From contig CACZXL010000007.1 of assembly GCA_902785135.1 (NCBI GenBank), forward strand, positions 6,016-70,015: DNA of 64,000 nucleotides, written 5' to 3'. Numbering within the stretch: position 1 is the first letter of the stretch; every line of letters begins with the position of its first letter. This document shows, piece after piece, positions 10,175-38,970 of the stretch. The stretch is from an uncultured Erysipelotrichaceae bacterium. GTDB lineage: Bacteria; Bacillota_I; Bacilli_A; RF39; UBA660. The notes under the pieces were generated by a model. That model was not told where the DNA came from and made no database searches. It was given only the letters and a program-made list of their open reading frames with translations. Made by a program: the position numbers and the translations under genes.

Positions 10175-11488
10175 ATGAAACTACCTAGTGTTGCTTTAGT
10201 TGGTAGACCAAATGTAGGTAAGAGTTCTGTTTTTAATAGAATATTAAGACAAAAAGTATCTATTATAGAAGATACTCCAGGTATTACTAGAGATAGAATA
10301 TATGGTACTGCTGAATATAAGGGATATAAGTTTAATCTTATTGATACTGGTGGAATAGATATTTCTGATGATAAATTTAATACAGATATTAAGATACAAG
10401 CAGAAATAGCGATAGATGAAGCAGATGTAGTAATATTCGTTGTAGATGGTAAAGAAGGTTTAAATACTAATGATAAGGTTGTTAGAGATATTCTTTATAA
10501 ATCTAATAAAAAGATAATTGTAGCGATAAATAAAATAGATAATAATCAAACTAAAGAAAACTTATATGATTTTTATGAATTAGGTTTTGAACATTATGTT
10601 CCTATAAGTGCGGAACATGGTACTAACTTTGATAGTTTATTAGATGAAGTTGTTAAAGATTTTAATGATCAAGATATAGTAGATGATGATGATAGATTAA
10701 AATTTTGTATAATAGGTAGACCAAATGTAGGTAAAAGTTCACTTGTTAATGCACTTCTTAGAGAAGATAGAGTAATTGTTAGTAATGAAGCTGGTACAAC
10801 TAGAGATTCAGTAGATACAGTATTTAAATATGATAAAAAAGATTATGTAGTTATAGATACTGCTGGTATGAGAAAAAAAGGAAAAATTTATGAAGCAGTA
10901 GAAAAGTATAGTTTATTAAGAGCGATGAAATCAATTGATAGAAGTGATGTTTGTGTAATAGTTATAAATGCTGAGGAAGGTATTATAGAACATGATAAAC
11001 ATATCGCATCATATGCATTAGAGGCAGGTAAACCTATGGTACTTGTTGTTAATAAATGGGATTTAATGAAGGATACTGATATTAAGACATTTACTAAAGA
11101 AATGAGAGCAGAATTTCAATTCCTATCATATGTACCAATTGTATTCTTAAGTGCTAAAGAAGGAACAAGAGTTCATACTTTGATGCCAGAAATAATAAAA
11201 GTATATAATAATGCTAGAAGAGAATTAAAGACTAGTTTATTAAATAATGTTATTAGAGATGCATATGATTTAAATGCTGCTCCTTCATATAAAGGTAGAA
11301 GATTAAAAATATATTATTGTGTTCAAGTAGGAATATCACCTATAAGAATTAATATGTTTGTAAATGATAAAGGATTAGTGCATTTCTCATATTTAAGATA
11401 TTTAGAAAATAAGATTAGAGAAAACTTTGATTTAGAAGGTACACCTTTAGAAATACAATTTAAAAATAAAGGTGAATCAGGAATGTAA
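10175..11488 (+). CDS. der: Tandem-GTPase Der/EngA
   Basis: Two G domains (GRPNVGKSS twice) and a KH-like C-terminus. ATG at 10175 follows aagaggtga; the track start at 10166 is likely too early. Confidence 0.93.
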   Translation: MKLPSVALVGRPNVGKSSVFNRILRQKVSIIEDTPGITRDRIYGTAEYKGYKFNLIDTGGIDISDDKFNTDIKIQAEIAIDEADVVIFVVDGKEGLNTNDKVVRDILYKSNKKIIVAINKIDNNQTKENLYDFYELGFEHYVPISAEHGTNFDSLLDEVVKDFNDQDIVDDDDRLKFCIIGRPNVGKSSLVNALLREDRVIVSNEAGTTRDSVDTVFKYDKKDYVVIDTAGMRKKGKIYEAVEKYSLLRAMKSIDRSDVCVIVINAEEGIIEHDKHIASYALEAGKPMVLVVNKWDLMKDTDIKTFTKEMRAEFQFLSYVPIVFLSAKEGTRVHTLMPEIIKVYNNARRELKTSLLNNVIRDAYDLNAAPSYKGRRLKIYYCVQVGISPIRINMFVNDKGLVHFSYLRYLENKIRENFDLEGTPLEIQFKNKGESGM

Positions 11489-26600: not shown

Positions 26601-26729
26601 ATATCAGATGAAGCATATTTAAATCAATTAGAGGGGTATAAAAAGTATATAGAAGATATAACTAATAAGAAAGTAAACATATATTTATATTCAATTATGA
26701 ATAAAGAATTAAAGAAACTAGGTGATTAA
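23643..26729 (+). CDS. addA: AddA-type ATP-dependent helicase/nuclease subunit A, compact 1028-aa form
   Basis: UvrD motifs (SAGAGSGKT, IDEYQDTS, VGDIKQSIYRFR, HKSKGLEY, LFYVALTRAKEKM) plus a C-terminal RecB nuclease block GVIDLMFEYTDHFDIIDYK. Confidence 0.8.
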   Translation: MMMMPTWTKEQNDAILKDKSNIIVSAGAGSGKTAVLSERVIRKLKEGVHINELLLLTFTNAAAKEMKERIRKKIKKEGLTKELEMIDQAYITTFDSYALSIVKKYNYKLNVSKDLSIVDSDLINYEKEKILDTLFEELYKDKNPDFLKLINDFCVKDDTEIRKYILSISSKLDLIIDLDKYFDEYESNYFSDEYLNNILELYLNKIREKQENVRLLLENLNHYVDNKYNEKIWDTLKGLLESKTYEEIKSNSELKLPPLSKDFSEAKPFKDEIKKETDEIKKLCSYINLEDAKEEIIKTRAYIKSIILIIKELKNRLDDFKYKYNLFEFNDIAKLSIKLLKENEDIRNEIKYSLNEIMIDEYQDTSDIQEAFISLIENNNVYMVGDIKQSIYRFRNANPYIFKNKYEKYSNNDGGIKIDLNKNFRSREETLLNINTIFNYIMNKDIGGADYKFSHQMVFGNNTYNNEGKTDQDYNFEIYNYDYDKEKGFTKEETEIFIIANDIKNKIDNKYKIFDKDELVVRDCSYNDFVILLDRAKDFELYKKIFEYKGIPLSIYKDEKVNDEVILTVLKNMIVSLDKINKKEFDNDFKHAFTSILRSFVFEYTDQEIFDLYLENNFYKNDIYNELRSINIDSKTPKEIINILLDKFNIIDKLTKIGDIDKNLVIIEYLLNYLDTKESIGYTISDIAVYLNDILEKKYEIKFSSNKESSNSVKIMTIHKSKGLEYNICYYAGLYNKFNIRDLSDSFMYYKNYGIVTPFFNNGIGETIYKFLIKEDYLKEEISEKIRLFYVALTRAKEKMIMLADLNGDTYNSKDEDGVLENSIRLKYRSFQDIIMSIEEELSKYVTKIDNIDITKDYELVKKYNFKDYINESDIKLSVKELDIDNKVLNKASFSKKHNKLLTEEEIKNMNFGTKMHYVFEITDFNNPDNDIVKSFLEVYDIKDSINIYKEYEFMYQEEDTIYNGVIDLMFEYTDHFDIIDYKLKNISDEAYLNQLEGYKKYIEDITNKKVNIYLYSIMNKELKKLGD

Positions 26730-26730
26730 A

Positions 26731-27633
26731 ATGAAAACAATACAAGAATTAGAACGCTTTTTTGAATTAGATTTAAAAGTAAAAAAGTTGATTGAAGTAT
26801 CTAGACCAAATTTATATGATGCGGATCCTGTTGAAATAGAATCTAAATTAATGAGTTCGGTAAATTCAACAAGATTAATGCTAAATCAAATGGTACTTCT
26901 TTCTGGTTTAGATTTGGAAGAAGAGTTTGATGAACTACATGAAAATATATTGAATGATATAAAAAACTGTAATTACAATGTTAATAAATTAGAATCAGTT
27001 TATGAAAATGATTTTTTAAGGATGACCAATGGTTTTGAAGATTCATTAGAAGAAAATATATTTGGTTATTGTAATAAAGAAAAAATATATATTCCTTTAG
27101 AACACTGTAAAACAATAAATGATATGCTACATTATGTTCATTTTTATGTCATGAATAATGAAGATACATTTAAAAATATGGATGAAATAGATGTAAAAAA
27201 ACAAGATGATGAAGTAGAATGGATGACTTATAAACTATATGGTAAAGATACTGAAATCGCAAGAGATATATTTAATAAATTACCAGAAAATGAAACTAAA
27301 ATAGATGAAGTATCATTTGATAATCATATAATAATAATGGTAAGAGATAGAGGACATGCTTTAACTATAGATGTTCAAAATGAATTAGATCATTATAGAG
27401 TATCTTACTATATACCAAAAATATGTAATATAGATATGGTAAATTCTTTAAAAGGTATTAGTAAAGTAGATCCTAATAAAAAGTCTGATTTTGATTCTGC
27501 ACATGGTGAATTTGTTGTAGATAAATCATCAGTAGGGGATGAAATAAACAAATTAATAACAAGTGTTCCAACTGATGAGGATATTAAACGTGTTTCTATT
27601 GAAGAAATGTTTAGAAATGCAAGAAAAATGTAA
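26731..27633 (+). CDS. Hypothetical protein
   Basis: ORF with no recognisable domain. It follows addA. Confidence 0.45.
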   Translation: MKTIQELERFFELDLKVKKLIEVSRPNLYDADPVEIESKLMSSVNSTRLMLNQMVLLSGLDLEEEFDELHENILNDIKNCNYNVNKLESVYENDFLRMTNGFEDSLEENIFGYCNKEKIYIPLEHCKTINDMLHYVHFYVMNNEDTFKNMDEIDVKKQDDEVEWMTYKLYGKDTEIARDIFNKLPENETKIDEVSFDNHIIIMVRDRGHALTIDVQNELDHYRVSYYIPKICNIDMVNSLKGISKVDPNKKSDFDSAHGEFVVDKSSVGDEINKLITSVPTDEDIKRVSIEEMFRNARKM

Positions 27634-27699
27634 TATTTACTTTTATAAATAAATATGTTAAAATACCTTTAACGAAAGCAATGAAAAAGAAGAGTAGTA

Positions 27700-27870
27700 T
27701 ATGAATTATTAAAGAGAGTCTATGTTTGGTGAGAATAGATATAATGATTATATGAATGAAGCTTTGGAGCTGAAGTCGTATTTAGGCGTTAACTAATTAA
27801 AGTGCATAGTTCCTATGAAGTAAGGTGGTACCGCTAGAAATAGTCCTTACATTATAGGGACTTTTTTATT
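27700..27870 (+). promoter_or_regulatory. T-box riboswitch leader upstream of gltX
   Basis: Stem I AGAGAGTCTATGTTTGGTGAGAATAG, candidate Glu specifier GAA in tatatGAAtGAAgc, T-box core aaGGTGGTACCGCtag at 27823-27838, and terminator agtcctta-catta-tagggact plus T6 at 27842-27868. Confidence 0.7.
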
Positions 27871-28110
27871 TAAAGGAGGCTTTTACGAGTTCTGAATTAT
27901 TAAAAGGTATTAAAAAAGTATTATAAGTATTTAGTAAAGAATATAAAGAAGAAACTAAATACAGAGAATTTATGGAAAGTAATTTAGATAGAATGAAGAT
28001 AAAACTAACAGAAGATGATATTGATAAAAAAATAAAAGTATTAAAAAATAATAATTATAAAAGTAATTTTAAAATTAATATAGGAAGTTATGAATAAAAG
28101 GAGTGATAAT

Positions 28111-30962: not shown

Positions 30963-31036
30963 GGACCTATAGCCAAGTGGTAAGGCACGGGACTGCAACT
31001 CCCTGATCGTTGGTTCAAATCCGACTAGGTCCTCCA
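30963..31036 (+). tRNA. tRNA-Cys (GCA)
   Basis: Acceptor stem ggaccta/taggtcc, anticodon loop ctGCAac, T-arm gttgg-ttcaaat-ccgac, encoded CCA. Confidence 0.85.
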
Positions 31037-31042
31037 TGGATT

Positions 31043-31117
31043 GCAGGTGTAGTACAATGGTTAGTACGAGGCCTTGCCAAGGCTTAGACGAGAGTTCGAT
31101 TCTCTTCACCTGCTCCA
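31043..31117 (+). tRNA. tRNA-Gly (GCC)
   Basis: Acceptor stem gcaggtg/cacctgc, anticodon loop ttGCCaa, T-loop ttcgatt, discriminator U, encoded CCA. Confidence 0.9.
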
Positions 31118-31127
31118 TATGTAAATA

Positions 31128-31152
31128 ACGCCATTATAGGCGTTTTTTTTAT
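31128..31152 (+). terminator. Terminator after the tRNA pair
   Basis: aacgcc-attatag-gcgtt followed by T8. Confidence 0.65.
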
Positions 31153-31174
31153 GGAGCGGTGAAGAGAATCTAAA

Positions 31175-31207
31175 TAAAAAAACTAGTCAATGACTAGTTT
31201 TGTTTTT
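31175..31207. terminator. Palindromic bidirectional terminator (copy 1), A-run, CTAGTCAATGACTAG, T-run
   Basis: Perfect 15-bp palindrome at 31183-31197 flanked by A7 and T-rich tracts. It supplies the TAG stop of the minus-strand gene that ends at 31194. Confidence 0.6.
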
Positions 31208-32024
31208 CCACAATATATTTTAATGCTTTATTAGATTTATTCTTATAATGTTCTTCATATCTTTTTTTATAATCAATTAATTCTAATGTTTTTATTAAAA
31301 AGTCTATATCTTTTATTTCGGAAGGATTCTTAAATATTACTTTTTTTGCTTCTTCTAAGCTCATATCTTTAATTATAGGGTATAAATCTGGCCATAATAA
31401 CTTAATATGCTCTACATAGTTACGTTTTGGATCAACTTCCCACATTATATCCTCGTCATAAACATATTCTTTTTTATTTTTACTATCCCTAATTACATCA
31501 TGTATATCATACATATAGTTATGAGGTAATATGTCCTTATTAAAATCTCTATTTATAACACCCTTTGTAATGTTATATGTATTATCTGGATTAAAAATAT
31601 GATATGGCAATACCCCATTCATTTTTTTGTGTATAATATTAACTTCCCAACTAAGGTTTTTAGGTTTTTCAAATTCATGATATACAAAATTTCCATTTTC
31701 CAAATTTATTTTACTTGTTGAAGCCTTTCTTAAAAAAATATCATCATAAGGATATGCATAAAAAGTAATTAAATTTAAATCATCATTATTCTTATTATAC
31801 GAATATAATTTAACATCATTCCAACCAAATTTTGAATATAGCGATAATTCTGATATGAAAAATCTTTCATCATATTCTCTCGTATCAATACCTGAGTAAT
31901 TTGCAAGCTCTTTCATTTTAAAAATCATGTAACTATAAAAATCTATTTGTTCCTTTTTATCTTTATCTGAATCATATTCTTTATTATACATTTCTGTTAA
32001 AAAATCTTTAATTGTTTCTCCCAT
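31194..32024 (-). CDS. Hypothetical protein (276 aa)
   Basis: ORF with ggagg-like Shine-Dalgarno (revcomp of 32026-32040). No recognisable domain. Confidence 0.5.
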   Translation of the reverse strand: MGETIKDFLTEMYNKEYDSDKDKKEQIDFYSYMIFKMKELANYSGIDTREYDERFFISELSLYSKFGWNDVKLYSYNKNNDDLNLITFYAYPYDDIFLRKASTSKINLENGNFVYHEFEKPKNLSWEVNIIHKKMNGVLPYHIFNPDNTYNITKGVINRDFNKDILPHNYMYDIHDVIRDSKNKKEYVYDEDIMWEVDPKRNYVEHIKLLWPDLYPIIKDMSLEEAKKVIFKNPSEIKDIDFLIKTLELIDYKKRYEEHYKNKSNKALKYIVEKQN

Positions 32025-32317
32025 AAATCCTCCATAATAATTATTATATCAAATTTTTATGATAATTCTTTCTTTTTAGTTTTCTTTTTTACCTAAAATA
32101 CTTTCAGGTTGATAATATAGTTTTTTAAATAAGAATTCTTCTTTATCATCAAGTTTAGTAAAAAAATTTTTTACTTGCATTGACATGCTCACAATATCTT
32201 TCTCCTTCTTGACTTAGTATTATAGCATTAATTATATGAATTTAAATAAAATAATCTAAAATAATTGATTATTTTTTTTATTAGTATATAATAAAAAATT
32301 ATTAGAGGAGTGTTATT

Positions 32318-32839
32318 ATGTCTGTTATTAAATCAGAATATGTTTTAGCAAATGCATTTTTAAGTACAAATAATGAAAGATTATCTATAGATATGTTATT
32401 TGATTATTATACTGATTTTAAGAAAAAAATTGAAAGCATTGAACAATATAAAGTTACCGCTTTTTCATTAGAAAGACTTCTTAGTAGTTTTGATAAAACT
32501 TTTAAATTAGAAAAAGATGATTTTAATATTACTATTGATAAAGATTTTGATAAACAAATATTAAGAGAAGGTCTACCAGATTTAATAATTGGTTTATTTG
32601 AAGAAACAGGTAATGAATTAAAAATGAGAAGTTGTCTTAACTGTTATAATAGTTGTTATATTACTAGAAATGGAGTTGAAAATCTGTTTTGTATTATGAA
32701 TGAACCATATAATTATCCACCATTTATGGTAGATGAAGATGATTATTGTAAAGAACATATATTTGTGGATGGTAATTGTTGCAAAGATGAAAAAGATGAA
32801 TTACATAAATCAAGAAAAATGGTAAATAAAAAAAACTAG
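32318..32839 (+). CDS. Hypothetical protein with cysteine-rich C-terminal half
   Basis: C-terminal CLNCYNSCY...FC...YCKEH...GNCCKD pattern suggests a metal-binding module. aggag lies upstream of the ATG. Confidence 0.5.
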   Translation: MSVIKSEYVLANAFLSTNNERLSIDMLFDYYTDFKKKIESIEQYKVTAFSLERLLSSFDKTFKLEKDDFNITIDKDFDKQILREGLPDLIIGLFEETGNELKMRSCLNCYNSCYITRNGVENLFCIMNEPYNYPPFMVDEDDYCKEHIFVDGNCCKDEKDELHKSRKMVNKKN

Positions 32840-32860
32840 TCATTGACTAGTCTTTTTTTG
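32829..32860. terminator. Palindromic bidirectional terminator (copy 2), A-run, CTAGTCATTGACTAG, T-run
   Basis: 15-bp palindrome at 32836-32850, differing from copy 1 only at the central base. It supplies TAG stops for both convergent genes (+ strand 32837-39, - strand 32847-49). Confidence 0.6.
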
Positions 32861-33623
32861 TAATATCTTTTACTTTATTAACTGCTTTACCTACATTCTT
32901 TTCTCCAAATGCTTGAAGAACTTCAATAGGTATAGCAAATATAATTGTATTAGATTGATCTGATGATAGATCGTTTAATGTTGCTAATGTTCTTAGGTGT
33001 AATGCACCAGGAGAATCACTTAATACGCTTGCAGCTTTAGCTAAGTTATCAGCAGCTTCTTTTTCACCTTTAGACTTAGTGATAACTGCTTCTTTTTCTC
33101 TTTCAGCTTCAGCAACTTTAGCAATAACTCTTTGCATTTCTTCTGGAAGTTTAACGTCTTTTAATTCAACGTTTTCAACTTTTATTCCCCAAGGATCAGT
33201 AGCTTCATCTATAACTTTACAAATTTCAGTAGATATTTTATCTCTTTCAGATAATAATTCATCTAAAGAAACTGCTCCAACAGCATTTCTCATTGTTGTT
33301 TGAGCTAATTGTCCAACAGCATATTGATATCTTTCAACAGCAAGTATACATTTAGATGCATCAAATACTTTATAGTATATAACTGCATTAATTCTAATAG
33401 ATACGTTATCTTTTGTAATAGCGTCTTGTTCTGGAACATCAACTGCTTTAGTTCTTATATCTACTTTTTTATACGATTCTATTACTGGTAAAACAATTTT
33501 CCAACCTGGTTTCATTATTTTAACAAATTTACCAAATCTAAATTTGATACCTCTTTCATATTCAGAAATTTGTCTAATAGATATTAGTATTATAAATATA
33601 ATTACTCCTATTAAAATATACAT
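32847..33623 (-). CDS. SPFH/band-7 (stomatin/prohibitin-like) membrane protein
   Basis: N-terminal TM helix, then YERGIKFRFGKF...VDIRTKAVDVPEQDAITKDNVSIRINAVIYYKV and AEAEREKEA coiled-coil. Start at 33623 follows aggagg; the track start at 33737 is too early. Confidence 0.8.
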   Translation of the reverse strand: MYILIGVIIFIILISIRQISEYERGIKFRFGKFVKIMKPGWKIVLPVIESYKKVDIRTKAVDVPEQDAITKDNVSIRINAVIYYKVFDASKCILAVERYQYAVGQLAQTTMRNAVGAVSLDELLSERDKISTEICKVIDEATDPWGIKVENVELKDVKLPEEMQRVIAKVAEAEREKEAVITKSKGEKEAADNLAKAASVLSDSPGALHLRTLATLNDLSSDQSNTIIFAIPIEVLQAFGEKNVGKAVNKVKDITKKD

Positions 33624-34914: not shown

Positions 34915-35006
34915 CTAATCATTCCTTTCTTTTTATACTATGATAAATGCCTTATATTTCATAGTTAAAAAGCCTATTTTATGTTAAAATTATTATGGGT
35001 GATATA

Positions 35007-36209
35007 ATGGATAGAATTATTATGCATATTGATGTTAATTCAGCTTTTTTATCTTGGTCTGCCTTAAAATTATTAAAGGAAGGTTCTAAGATAGATTTAA
35101 GAAATGAAATATCTGTTGTATCAGGTAGAGAAGCTAGTAGACATGGTATAGTTGTTGCGGCCTCTATACCCGCTAAAAAGATTGGCATTAGATCACCAAT
35201 GAATCTTAGAGATGCAAAAAAAATATACAAAGATGTAATTGTTACTCATCAAGATAGAGAGTTTTATAAAGAGTGTTCTAAGAATATGCTTAGATTAATA
35301 AAATATTTATTTCCTAAGTATGAACAGTATTCTATAGATGAATGTTTTGTTGATTATACTGAAATGAAAAAGTTATATGGTGATGAAGTAAAATTCGCAC
35401 ATAAATTAAAAAATGAAATATATAAAAGGTTTGGTTTTACTGTTAATGTTGGGATAGGTAACAATAAATTACTCGCAAAAATGGCAAGTGATTTTGAAAA
35501 ACCAAATAAAGTTCATACTTTATATCTAAATGAAATAGAAGAAAAAATGTGGCCTCTTCCTATATCTGATTTATTTATGGCTGGTAAATCAGCTTGTCAG
35601 AAATTAAAAGGACTAGGGATAGAGACTATTGGAGATCTTGCTAAATATGATCAAAATAAACTAATAGGTCTCCTAAAATCACATGGCAAAATGCTTTATG
35701 AATACGCAAATGGTATTGATGATTCTCCTGTGGAAAATAGATATGATGATAGAAAAGGTATTGGTTTTTCAAAAACAATGGAAGATGATATAGAAGATAA
35801 AGCTACAATATATGAAATGCTTAGTAAGTTTTCAAATCAAATATCTTTAGAATTAAAAAAGAGAGGGATGTACGCAAAAACATTAGTGGTAACTATAAGA
35901 TATGCTTCTTTTAAAACATATAATCATCAAATTAAATTTGAAAATAATACAAATTTAGAAGAAGAAATATTTAAATATTCAAAACAAGCTTTTAATAAAT
36001 TATGGAATCTTGAACCAATAAGATTAATAGGTCTTAGAGTATCAGATTTATCTAATAATAATGATATACAGTTATCTTTATTTGATGAAAATAATAAAGT
36101 AATAACAGAAAAAGAAATAGATAAGTTAATAGATGATATTAATAAAGAATTTGGTTCTGGTACAGTATTTAAAGGGTTTAATAATGTAAATCAAAAGAAA
36201 AAGTCTTGA
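35007..36209 (+). CDS. Y-family translesion DNA polymerase (DinB/UmuC-like)
   Basis: IMHIDVNSAFLSWSA N-terminus, SIDECFVD catalytic block, HhH/little-finger region. Confidence 0.8.
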   Translation: MDRIIMHIDVNSAFLSWSALKLLKEGSKIDLRNEISVVSGREASRHGIVVAASIPAKKIGIRSPMNLRDAKKIYKDVIVTHQDREFYKECSKNMLRLIKYLFPKYEQYSIDECFVDYTEMKKLYGDEVKFAHKLKNEIYKRFGFTVNVGIGNNKLLAKMASDFEKPNKVHTLYLNEIEEKMWPLPISDLFMAGKSACQKLKGLGIETIGDLAKYDQNKLIGLLKSHGKMLYEYANGIDDSPVENRYDDRKGIGFSKTMEDDIEDKATIYEMLSKFSNQISLELKKRGMYAKTLVVTIRYASFKTYNHQIKFENNTNLEEEIFKYSKQAFNKLWNLEPIRLIGLRVSDLSNNNDIQLSLFDENNKVITEKEIDKLIDDINKEFGSGTVFKGFNNVNQKKKS

Positions 36210-38710: not shown

Positions 38711-38970
38711 ATTTATCTTGAAAACCTTTGATGGGAAGAGTAAAAAGATGGATTTTATAGAGAGTCTATGGTTGGTGGAAATAGATATTAAAGTCTTTTG
38801 AACATGGTCCTTGAATAGGTGATTAACTGATATGTAAGTTAATACAGGTGTGCCTGTTACAGCACTAAACCAAATTGGTTATTAAGGTTAATATAGTAAT
38901 ATATTAATGAAAAAGAGTGGTAACACGAGTTTGATCGTCTCTTAGAAGTTTTCTTCTAAGAGTTTTTTAT
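38711..38970 (+). promoter_or_regulatory. T-box riboswitch leader upstream of metG-proS
   Basis: Stem I AGAGAGTCTATGGTTGGTGGAAATAG is nearly identical to the gltX leader. Candidate Met specifier ATG in gaacATGGtcc. T-box-like aGTGGTAACACGag. Terminator tctcttagaag-ttttc-ttctaagag plus T6 at 38938-38968. Confidence 0.65.

What the first reader, a model, noticed from the sequence alone, without database searches (positions are those of the whole stretch)
30963..32870. tRNA-Cys/tRNA-Gly pair followed by a 1.6-kb two-gene segment bracketed by near-identical 15-bp palindromes
Two palindromes sit about 1.65 kb apart, each embedded between an A-run and a T-run (bidirectional terminators). They are CTAGTCAATGACTAG at 31183-31197 and CTAGTCATTGACTAG at 32836-32850, identical except for the central base. 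Each palindrome also provides the TAG stop codons of the abutting genes. The enclosed genes are a 276-aa protein on the minus strand and a 173-aa protein on the plus strand with a CxxC/CC-rich C-terminus, both of unknown function. The segment lies immediately 3' of a tRNA pair, a classic insertion hotspot. This could be a small mobile cassette delimited by a REP-like repeat family, or simply a family of species-specific terminators.
Basis: seen in the sequence. Interest (0 to 1): 0.55.

Follow-up and report, generated by a model that had tools for sequence, protein, structure and literature searches.

The report
Gene cassette splitting a duplicated terminator
A 1.65-kb piece of DNA with two genes of unknown function sits inside a hairpin transcription terminator that now appears at both of its ends; a close relative has the terminator unsplit and sister strains carry a different insert at the same spot, so this is a small hot spot for gene gain and loss, not a genome-wide repeat family.

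Summary
There is a tRNA-Cys/tRNA-Gly pair and two 15-bp palindromes 1653 bp apart. Each lies between an A-tract and a T-tract and supplies TAG stops.

The palindromes are two copies of one ~30-35-bp bidirectional intrinsic terminator. In a close relative (L140, 94-96% nt identity) the terminator occurs once, between tRNA-Gly and the convergent slipin (SPFH) gene. Its left flank matches the window's left copy and its right flank matches the right copy. The 1.65-kb segment (276-aa gene, 36-aa gene relic, 173-aa orphan gene) is therefore an insertion/deletion whose ends lie in the palindromes.

Same-species contigs (98.4% identity) hold a different 0.86-kb insert at the same site, a decayed type II restriction endonuclease gene, with a 35-bp duplication. 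More distant relatives fill the same tRNA-Gly/slipin slot with other genes.

The palindrome is not a REP-like family. It occurs twice in 64 kb and at most once per genome in 185,579 species genomes. No integrase or transposase lies within 10 kb.

The closest known phenomenon is "insertion with long target duplication". Unusually, the same palindrome also brackets other small inserts beside tRNA-Gly genes in related uncultured low-GC Bacilli. The recombination mechanism is unresolved.

The parts
30963..31036 (+). tRNA-Cys (GCA)
   Evidence: ARAGORN; Rfam
31043..31117 (+). tRNA-Gly (GCC), left conserved anchor of the variable slot
   Evidence: the synteny GltX-NUDIX-bPH-tRNACys-tRNAGly is conserved in relatives
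31127..31152 (+). tRNA operon's own terminator hairpin (AACGCC...GGCGTT) plus T-tract
   Evidence: also present in the empty-site relative L140
31152..31170 (.). Inverted 19-nt copy (one deletion) of the tRNA-Gly 3' end. It predates the cassette because it is present in the empty site too.
   Evidence: pairs with the tRNA 3' end in a long stem
31171..31206 (.). Left copy of the duplicated bidirectional terminator (TAAATAAAAAAA-CTAGTCAATGACTAG-T-tract). Terminates the 276-aa gene and backs up the tRNA operon.
   Evidence: junction alignment A4
31183..32835 (.). The 1653-bp insertion/deletion unit: one terminator copy plus cargo. The exact crossover point within the repeat cannot be assigned.
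   Evidence: The empty site L140 has one palindrome with the left flank of the left copy and the right flank of the right copy
31194..32024 (-). 276-aa cargo gene of unknown function. Belongs to a rare family (12 clusters among 1.84 billion representatives).
32076..32186 (-). 36-aa ORF, a relic of the N-terminus of a >=329-aa gene that precedes the 276-aa homologue in L007
   Evidence: 76-78% identity to L007 residues 5-38; called as a gene in L001, L008 and L149
32187..32317 (.). Divergent promoter region of the cassette (sigma-70-like hexamers on both strands)
   Evidence: + 32265-32292 TTGATT/TATAAT; - 32260-32231 and 32246-32219; consensus matches only
32318..32839 (+). 173-aa cargo gene with a Cys-rich C-terminus. 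Orphan: no homologue other than itself.
   Evidence: single-sequence AF2 model unusable (pLDDT 35.6)
32823..32859 (.). Right copy of the duplicated terminator (TAAATAAAAAAAA-CTAGTCATTGACTAG-TCTTTTTTT). Shared by the 173-aa gene and the slipin gene.
   Evidence: orthologous palindrome with the slipin stop codon in the same register in L078, L092 and L139
32847..33623 (-). Slipin (SPFH/Band_7) gene, right conserved anchor of the slot
   Evidence: Pfam; orthologues at 88-100% identity

Best explanation
The two palindromes are two copies of one ~30-35-bp bidirectional Rho-independent terminator (A-tract, CTAGTCAWTGACTAG stem-loop, T-tract). Ancestrally this terminator stood once between the tRNA-Cys/tRNA-Gly operon and the convergent slipin gene. 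In this lineage a 1.65-kb cassette lies within that terminator, with the terminator present on both sides. The cassette holds two divergently transcribed genes of unknown function plus a 36-aa relic of a third gene. Each terminator copy now stops one inner and one outer transcription unit and supplies their TAG stops. Because the palindrome has stops in all three frames on both strands, any insert is insulated both translationally and transcriptionally.

What is shown: the presence/absence polymorphism has its ends inside the repeat; an alternative cassette sits at the same site in the same species; and no mobility gene is nearby.

What is inferred: the cassette most likely arrived carrying its own copy of the palindrome, since homologues of the 276-aa gene in other species and other contexts also end in it. 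It would then have joined the chromosome by recombination between the two palindrome-terminators. This would be Campbell-type integration of a 1.65-kb circle, either RecA-dependent on ~30 bp of identity or catalysed by an unidentified recombinase acting in trans. The reverse reaction would give the empty site. Alleles would then spread by homologous recombination in the conserved flanks.
For: - Empty site L140: '...gaatctaaataaaaaaaCTAGTCATTGACTAGtctttttttgtaatatc...' joins the outer flanks of the window's two copies. L140 is 93.5-95.7% identical in 11 kb of flanks.
- L153, L141 and L142 carry an 855-857-bp insert at the same site. L141 is 98.4% identical to the window over 9.8 kb. The insert is a ~262-aa type II restriction endonuclease gene with one in-frame stop (PADLOC REase_II, E 4.7e-7). 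In L153 it is flanked by a 35-nt direct repeat, 34/35 identical.
- All 8 contigs with the 100%-identical slipin carry the window's cassette.
- More distant relatives keep GltX-NUDIX-bPH-tRNACys-tRNAGly and slipin but fill the gap (0.45-6.5 kb) with unrelated genes. They often keep the palindrome 13-14 nt after tRNA-Gly and/or at the slipin stop codon.
- Homologues of the 276-aa gene in L007 and L004-6 end in CTAGTCATTTGACTAG and CTAGTTATAGACTAG in other contexts.
- The hairpins are stable on both strands and are followed by U-tracts.
- No integrase or transposase Pfam family is on record within +-10 kb in L140, L141, L146 or L149.
- The cargo has no Pfam, NCBIfam, PADLOC or PHROG hit.
- The literature describes the same class of event: insert flanked by a >30-bp duplication of a sequence that is single in the empty genome, with no mobility genes (PMC2853133).
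Against: - Direction is not proven. L140 could be a precise deletion between the 31-nt repeats (slippage or RecA) from a filled ancestor.
- The window's two copies share only ~28-31 nt, and their inner T-tract/A-tract sides differ. That is short for RecA and gives no positive sign of a site-specific enzyme.
- No circular form or junction read was looked for.
- All comparison sequences are metagenome contigs. A mis-join across a 31-nt repeat is unlikely at the k-mer sizes used, but it was not excluded from reads.
- In some relatives (L064, L056, L141 left copy) the hairpin evolves by ordinary compensatory changes. That argues for plain terminator selection and against a sequence-specific site.
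Confidence: 0.8

Rival explanations
1. The segment is ancestral and nothing was inserted. Two terminators became alike, and L140 merely lost the segment by replication slippage or RecA-mediated deletion between the two 31-nt direct repeats.
For: Direct repeats of 31 nt at 90% identity, 1.65 kb apart, can mediate precise deletion. The empty-site palindrome has the centre base of the right copy. The cassette shows internal decay (the 36-aa relic), which suggests age.
Against: A second, unrelated insert sits at exactly the same site with its own 35-nt duplication in the same species. Every more distant relative has different content. The 173-aa gene exists nowhere else, and the 276-aa family is found in other contexts elsewhere. 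Two 17-mers identical by convergence is implausible.
Confidence: 0.12
2. The palindromes belong to a REP-like or MITE-like dispersed repeat family, mobilised in trans by a RAYT/IS200-type enzyme, and they happen to flank these genes.
For: The same 17-mer recurs in related low-GC contigs after several different tRNA genes and at protein-gene 3' ends. The pairs cluster: 18 second copies within 3.5 kb (219 kb searched) versus 2 farther away (169 kb searched).
Against: There are only 2 copies in 64 kb, both at this slot. There are 28 places in 185,579 species genomes, never two in one genome, and 97 in the metagenome set. No transposase is nearby. The empty site already contains one copy, so the repeat is the target, not an inserted element.
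Confidence: 0.04
3. A classical tRNA-targeting genomic islet, integrated by a tyrosine integrase at the 3' end of tRNA-Gly.
For: The segment is adjacent to a tRNA pair. An inverted fragment of the tRNA-Gly 3' end lies next to the left palindrome. Other contigs show sequence replaced exactly up to '...CTCCA' (L141, L065, L108), and L065 carries a protein that I judged by eye to have a MobV-relaxase-type motif (HFDETSPHMH); this was not scanned against any library.
Against: There is no integrase in or near the segment. No direct repeat of the tRNA 3' end lies at the far boundary. The boundary is in the terminator 66 nt downstream of the tRNA. The inverted tRNA fragment is present in the empty site too.
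Confidence: 0.03

Closest known systems
Insertion with long target duplication (Nobusato et al. 2000; Furuta, Abe & Kobayashi 2010, PMC2853133)
   Same: A small gene unit with no transposase or integrase is flanked by direct repeats of ~30-46 bp that occur once in the empty-site genome. The repeat overlaps gene 3' ends. The alternative allele here even carries a restriction-enzyme gene remnant, and R-M genes are the typical cargo in those reports.
   Different: The duplicated target here is a perfect palindromic bidirectional terminator. The same target was used by at least two different inserts. The same palindrome brackets other inserts in other genera. The window's cargo is not an R-M system. 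In the window's allele the repeat is at the lower limit (28-31 nt) of the >30-bp criterion.
Minimal mobile elements / variable islets between conserved genes (described for Neisseria; recalled from memory, not checked in a paper here)
   Same: A slot between two conserved genes holds different small gene sets in different strains and species, with no mobility genes. Exchange is plausibly by transformation and homologous recombination in the flanks.
   Different: Here the ends of the heterology coincide with a duplicated terminator, which flank-mediated exchange alone does not explain.
Integron gene cassettes with attC sites / CALINs
   Same: Mostly orphan genes, each followed by an imperfect or perfect palindrome with conserved outer bases and a variable centre. 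Insertion leaves a palindrome on each side. No recombinase lies within the cassette.
   Different: There is no intI within 10 kb. The site is 15-35 bp rather than the roughly 55-140 bp typical of attC sites (length range recalled from memory), and it lacks the attC architecture. There is a single cassette, not an array. The palindrome is demonstrably terminator-shaped. Membership is not met.
REP/BIME elements
   Same: Short palindromes at gene 3' ends with terminator-like structure.
   Different: Copy number is 1-2 per genome instead of tens to hundreds.

Membership tests
Bidirectional Rho-independent terminator | Stem-loop containing G-C pairs, followed by a U-tract on both strands | tested here: met
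   10-14-bp stems, -9.7 to -13.8 kcal/mol, A-tract upstream and T-tract downstream
Bidirectional Rho-independent terminator | Located at the 3' ends of convergent transcription units | tested here: met
   left copy lies between the tRNA operon and the 276-aa gene; right copy lies between the 173-aa gene and the slipin gene
Bidirectional Rho-independent terminator | Transcripts actually end there | not testable with these tools
   Needs Term-seq or RNA-seq
Insertion with long target duplication | Insert flanked by direct repeats longer than ~30 bp | tested here: met
   Allele C (L153): 35 nt, 34/35 identical. Window allele: 31 nt at 90%, with 28 nt nearly exact, which is borderline.
Insertion with long target duplication | The repeat sequence occurs once at the empty site of a related genome | tested here: met
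   L140
Insertion with long target duplication | No transposase, integrase or other mobile element in or beside the insert | tested here: met
Insertion with long target duplication | Cargo is a restriction-modification unit (as in the published screens) | tested here: not met
   The window cargo has no R-M signature. Only the alternative allele has a REase pseudogene. The published concept is not limited to R-M genes.
REP/BIME family | Tens to hundreds of copies per genome | tested here: not met
   2 copies in 64 kb; at most 1 exact copy per genome in 185,579 species genomes. The source genome itself was not available whole.
REP/BIME family | Cognate RAYT (Y1 transposase) gene in the genome | not tested
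   Only 64 kb of the genome is available
Integron cassette / attC | intI integrase and attI next to the cassettes | tested here: not met
   No Phage_integrase hit on record within +-10 kb
Integron cassette / attC | attC architecture (R''-L''...L'-R' with extrahelical bases; roughly 55-140 bp, length range recalled from memory) | tested here: not met
   The site is a perfect 15-bp palindrome plus A/T tracts
tRNA-targeting integrase island | Integrase gene, and a direct repeat of the tRNA 3' end at the distal boundary | tested here: not met
   the only other copy of the tRNA-Gly 3' end is inverted, adjacent, and also present in the empty site
IMEX at dif | Site lies at the replication terminus (GC-skew sign change) | tested here: not met
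   Cumulative GC skew rises monotonically across the window. The palindrome also occurs after several different tRNA genes.

The most novel reading that the evidence does not exclude
The palindrome A-tract-CTAGTCA(N1-4)TGACTAG-T-tract may be more than a terminator. It could be a dedicated landing and recombination site of a so-far undescribed cassette system in a clade of uncultured low-GC gut Bacilli. Small circles, each carrying one or two genes and one palindrome, would integrate at palindrome-terminators, preferentially those just 3' of tRNA genes, through a recombinase encoded elsewhere. In effect this would be an attC-like system with a minimal site that doubles as a bidirectional terminator and a six-frame translational stop.

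Supporting hints:
- The same 17-mer sits 10-15 nt after tRNA-Gly(GCC), tRNA-Gly(TCC), tRNA-His, tRNA-Pro and tRNA-Ser genes in different contigs.
- Palindrome pairs bracket single genes beside tRNA-Gly in L064/L101/L136, L078, L107 and L002, and beside a tRNA fragment in L122.
- Homologous secreted proteins (53% identity) are palindrome-bracketed next to two different tRNA-Gly genes.
- The 276-aa family keeps the palindrome at its 3' end in three different contexts.
Probability: 0.15. Interest if true: 0.8.

Novelty: new variant of a known kind. Interest (0 to 1): 0.5.

Why it matters
It gives a clean, base-resolved example of how orphan genes enter and leave a compact low-GC genome without any visible mobility gene. 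A bidirectional terminator serves as the entry point and is duplicated, so that the neighbours (a tRNA operon and a slipin gene) and the newcomers all remain properly terminated. The three allelic states in close relatives are empty, cassette A and cassette C. The same palindrome also recurs around other small inserts in related genera. Together these make the old question of the mechanism behind 'insertion with long target duplication' testable in a defined sequence context. If the palindrome proves to be a true recombination site, it would be a new minimal cassette system in Firmicutes, a phylum that (from my recollection of published integron surveys, not checked here) essentially lacks integrons.

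Tried and rejected
- **Genome-wide repeat family.** Scans of 185,579 species genomes, IMG/VR and JGI metagenomes with ACTAGTCAWTGACTAGT gave 28, 6 and 97 places. No genome record held two copies, and among metagenome contigs only L136 held two exact copies. Rejected as a REP-like family. The source species itself was not in these collections.
- **Species-wide terminator design.** The other ~20 hairpin terminators in the window have unrelated stems. Rejected.
- **173-aa protein.** No homologue at all. The single-sequence AF2 model has pLDDT 35.6, so no fold search was run.
- **L024 296-aa protein.** It occupies the same position after tRNA-Gly but is not a homologue of the 276-aa protein.
- **dif/IMEX idea.** No GC-skew switch.
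- **Second indel.** A 303-aa ORFan at 26722-27633 is absent from L140. Its boundaries show no palindrome or repeat, so not every indel here uses the palindrome.
- **L122 versus L076 as a second empty/filled pair.** No homology was found between them. L056 is the orthologue of one side of L122 and has a compensated hairpin.
- **Rfam** on the window and on four loci found only tRNAs and T-boxes.
Full report
**1. What is in the sequence**

The window is about 25% G+C. It carries sporulation genes (CotJB/CotJC) and comes from an uncultured low-GC Firmicute. Close slipin orthologues are labelled 'MAG: Bacilli bacterium' or 'Clostridia bacterium', and the syntenic relative L024 is 'Bacilli bacterium RGIG6846' from sheep rumen.

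tRNA-Cys(GCA) lies at 30963-31036 and tRNA-Gly(GCC) at 31043-31117. CTAGTCAATGACTAG (31183-31197) and CTAGTCATTGACTAG (32836-32850) are the only matches in 64 kb, even with three mismatches allowed on the 17-mer. They are reverse complements of one another. As direct repeats they extend to 31 nt at 90% identity.

Both copies fold into 10-14-bp hairpins on either strand (-9.7 to -13.8 kcal/mol) between an A-tract and a T-tract. They are therefore bidirectional intrinsic terminators. The left copy contains the stop codon of the 276-aa gene (31194-32024, -). The right copy contains the stops of the 173-aa gene (32318-32839, +) and of the slipin/SPFH gene (32847-33623, -). The 15-mer has stop codons in all three frames on both strands (read from the sequence). 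About 20 other terminator-like hairpins in the window have unrelated stems.

**2. The decisive comparison**

I searched for slipin orthologues and pulled their contigs. This gave three allelic states in very close relatives.

- **Allele A** is the window's arrangement. It is found in every contig with the 100%-identical slipin (L008, L149-L152) and in L001.
- **Allele B** is L140, which is 93.5-95.7% identical to the window over about 11 kb of flanks. It reads tRNA-Gly, its own terminator, the inverted tRNA fragment, then a single palindrome, '...gaatctaaataaaaaaaCTAGTCATTGACTAGtctttttttgtaatatc...', running straight into the slipin gene. Its left flank is that of the window's left copy. Its centre and right flank are those of the right copy (alignment A4).
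- **Allele C** is L153 (slipin 99%), L141 and L142. L141 is 98.4% identical to the window over 9.8 kb, so it is the same species. At the same site these contigs carry an 855-857-bp insert encoding a ~262-aa protein with one in-frame stop. The protein matches a type II restriction endonuclease model (PADLOC REase_II, E 4.7e-7). In L153 the insert is flanked by a 35-nt direct repeat, AAATAAAAA(G/A)A-CTAGTCAATGACTAG-TCTTTTTTT, 34/35 identical.

The window's 1653-bp unit is therefore an insertion/deletion whose ends lie inside a duplicated terminator. The same terminator has received at least two different inserts.

**3. The wider slot**

More distant relatives (75-85% nt identity in the flanks) keep GltX-NUDIX-bPH-tRNACys-tRNAGly on one side and slipin-(small membrane protein)-CotJ-DinB on the other. 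Between them lie unrelated contents of 0.45-6.5 kb:

- one 132-aa ORF (L078);
- a 248-aa secreted protein plus eight genes (L064/L101/L136);
- MurE and rubrerythrin with various extras (L024, L092, L139);
- RelA_SpoT and CmpB (L146);
- AIM24 and a 227-aa protein (L155-157).

In many of these the palindrome is kept 13-14 nt after tRNA-Gly (L002, L063, L064, L078, L101, L136). In others it is kept at the slipin stop codon in exactly the same register (L078, L092, L139). Elsewhere the slipin terminator has drifted by compensatory changes (GACTAATTAATTAGTC in L064) or been replaced (L143, L155, L158). The left copy in L141 has become CTAGTTCAAAACTAG with a compensated pair. The hairpin therefore evolves like a terminator under structural selection. 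Where genes overlap it, coding constraint adds to that selection.

**4. The cargo**

Its homologues sit in different contexts. In L007 and in L004-6 they still end '...QN*' inside a variant of the same palindrome. In L002 the homologue lies in a 3-kb, four-gene block. That block is bracketed by the palindrome and a two-base-centre variant immediately beside tRNA-Gly.

The 36-aa ORF (32076-32186) is the N-terminal remnant of a >=329-aa gene that precedes the homologue in L007. The cassette is therefore a decayed piece of a larger unit. The 173-aa protein has no homologue besides itself, and its single-sequence model is unusable. The insert's G+C content equals that of the flanks. Function stays unknown. 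Given that the alternative allele is a restriction-enzyme remnant, a role in defence or competition is a guess at best.

**5. How it most likely works**

Shown:
- the terminator is duplicated around the insert;
- the empty site exists;
- a second insert uses the same site;
- there is no integrase or transposase within +-10 kb (precomputed Pfam).

Inferred: homologues of the 276-aa gene carry the palindrome at their 3' end in unrelated contexts. The cassette therefore probably came with its own copy and joined the chromosome by recombination between two palindrome-terminators. As a circle, the 276-aa and 173-aa genes would converge on a single shared terminator. Excision would be the reverse reaction. 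Whether recombination is RecA-driven on ~30 bp of identity, uses a trans-acting site-specific enzyme, or instead reflects a staggered break around a cruciform with fill-in cannot be decided here.

The published category that fits is 'insertion with long target duplication' (PMC2853133). It is defined by a repeat longer than 30 bp that is single in the empty genome, with no mobility genes.

**6. What is not ordinary**

The exact 17-mer is rare globally: 28 places in 185,579 species genomes, never two in one genome. Yet in low-GC metagenome contigs it lies 10-15 nt after tRNA-Gly(GCC), tRNA-Gly(TCC), tRNA-His, a tRNA array ending in tRNA-Pro, and tRNA-Ser.

Palindrome pairs bracket single genes beside tRNA-Gly genes in several independent loci (L064 group, L078, L107, L002) and beside a tRNA fragment in L122. 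The bracketed 219-aa (L107) and 248-aa (L136) proteins are 53% identical although they sit beside different tRNA-Gly genes. A second palindrome-like site is far commoner within 3.5 kb of an exact copy (18 in 219 kb, about 8 of them independent) than farther away (2 in 169 kb).

This is suggestive of a preferred landing site, but it does not prove a dedicated mechanism. I put that reading at about 0.15.

**7. Verdict**

It is wrong about the nature of the repeats, which are a duplicated resident terminator and not a REP-like family.

This is a new variant of a known kind of event, of moderate interest. It includes a testable and more novel possibility.

Noticed in passing
window 31118-31170: In this lineage a ~52-nt piece lies between tRNA-Gly and the left palindrome. 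It consists of an extra terminator hairpin (31127-31144) followed by an inverted 19-nt copy (one deletion) of the tRNA-Gly 3' end (31152-31170). Together with the tRNA 3' end it can form a ~21-bp stem (MFE of 31043-31205 is -68 kcal/mol, z -9.6). It is present in L140, L141 and L153, but in more distant relatives the palindrome follows the tRNA by only 13-14 nt. Its origin (fold-back copying, or an att-site scar) is unexplained.
   Followed up: partly
window 32076-32186 (-): The 36-aa ORF upstream of the 276-aa gene is 76-78% identical to the N-terminus of a >=329-aa protein that precedes the homologue in L007. It is a relic of a truncated gene, so the cassette has lost about 0.9 kb internally.
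   Followed up: yes
window 26717-27624 and about 27870-28090: A 303-aa ORFan gene directly after AddA, and a ~220-nt stretch with a small ORF between the gltX T-box leader and gltX, are absent from L140 (and the first also from L146). No palindrome or repeat marks these indels.
   Followed up: partly
window 27672-27851 and 38719-38945: Two T-box leaders (Rfam RF00230). The first lies upstream of the GltX-type synthetase gene and the second upstream of a class I tRNA synthetase gene.
   Followed up: no
L141 (about 10,700-10,757) and L142; L065; L108: Sequence upstream of '...CTCCA' plus the normal tRNA 3' flank is not a tRNA. This looks like the far junction of a larger element integrated into the 3' end of a tRNA-Gly gene. 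L065 carries a protein with a motif that I read by eye as MobV-relaxase-like (HFDETSPHMH; not scanned against any library) and ABC-transporter genes there. The L141 and L142 contigs end about 60 nt further on.
   Followed up: partly
L146 12247-13077: In this relative a 174-aa gene of unknown function sits between tRNA-Cys and tRNA-Gly, which are adjacent everywhere else. A palindrome variant, CTAGTCAACCGACTAG, follows tRNA-Gly.
   Followed up: no
L052, L083, L132, L086, L076, L063, L064, L101, L136: The exact 17-mer ACTAGTCAWTGACTAGT lies 10-15 nt after the 3' end of five different kinds of tRNA gene or array in low-GC metagenome contigs. The centre base (A or T) has no fixed orientation relative to the tRNA.
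   Followed up: partly
L107 470-1129 and L136 395-1141 (also L064, L101): A family of secreted 219-248-aa proteins (53% identity, no Pfam hit). Each is bracketed by the palindrome, next to tRNA-Gly(TCC) in one contig and tRNA-Gly(GCC) in the others.
   Followed up: partly
L037-L042 (IMG/VR); L050, L054, L060, L070, L071, L094, L113, L115, L137: A separate group of ~35% G+C viral or gut contigs carries the 17-mer inside a longer hairpin, AGAGAACTAGTCAWTGACTAGTTCTCT, at what looks like one orthologous phage locus.
   Followed up: no
L048, L089, L090, L096: Environmental contigs in which GACTAGTCAWT units are repeated head to tail (e.g. ACTAGTCATTGACTAGTCATTGATTAGTCAAT). This is a tandem array, not a terminator.
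   Followed up: no
L140 4645-5822; L148 4029-5253: The DinB/Pol IV gene, which is intact in the window (34995-36209), is called as two pieces in these relatives. It may be a pseudogene or a sequencing frameshift.
   Followed up: no
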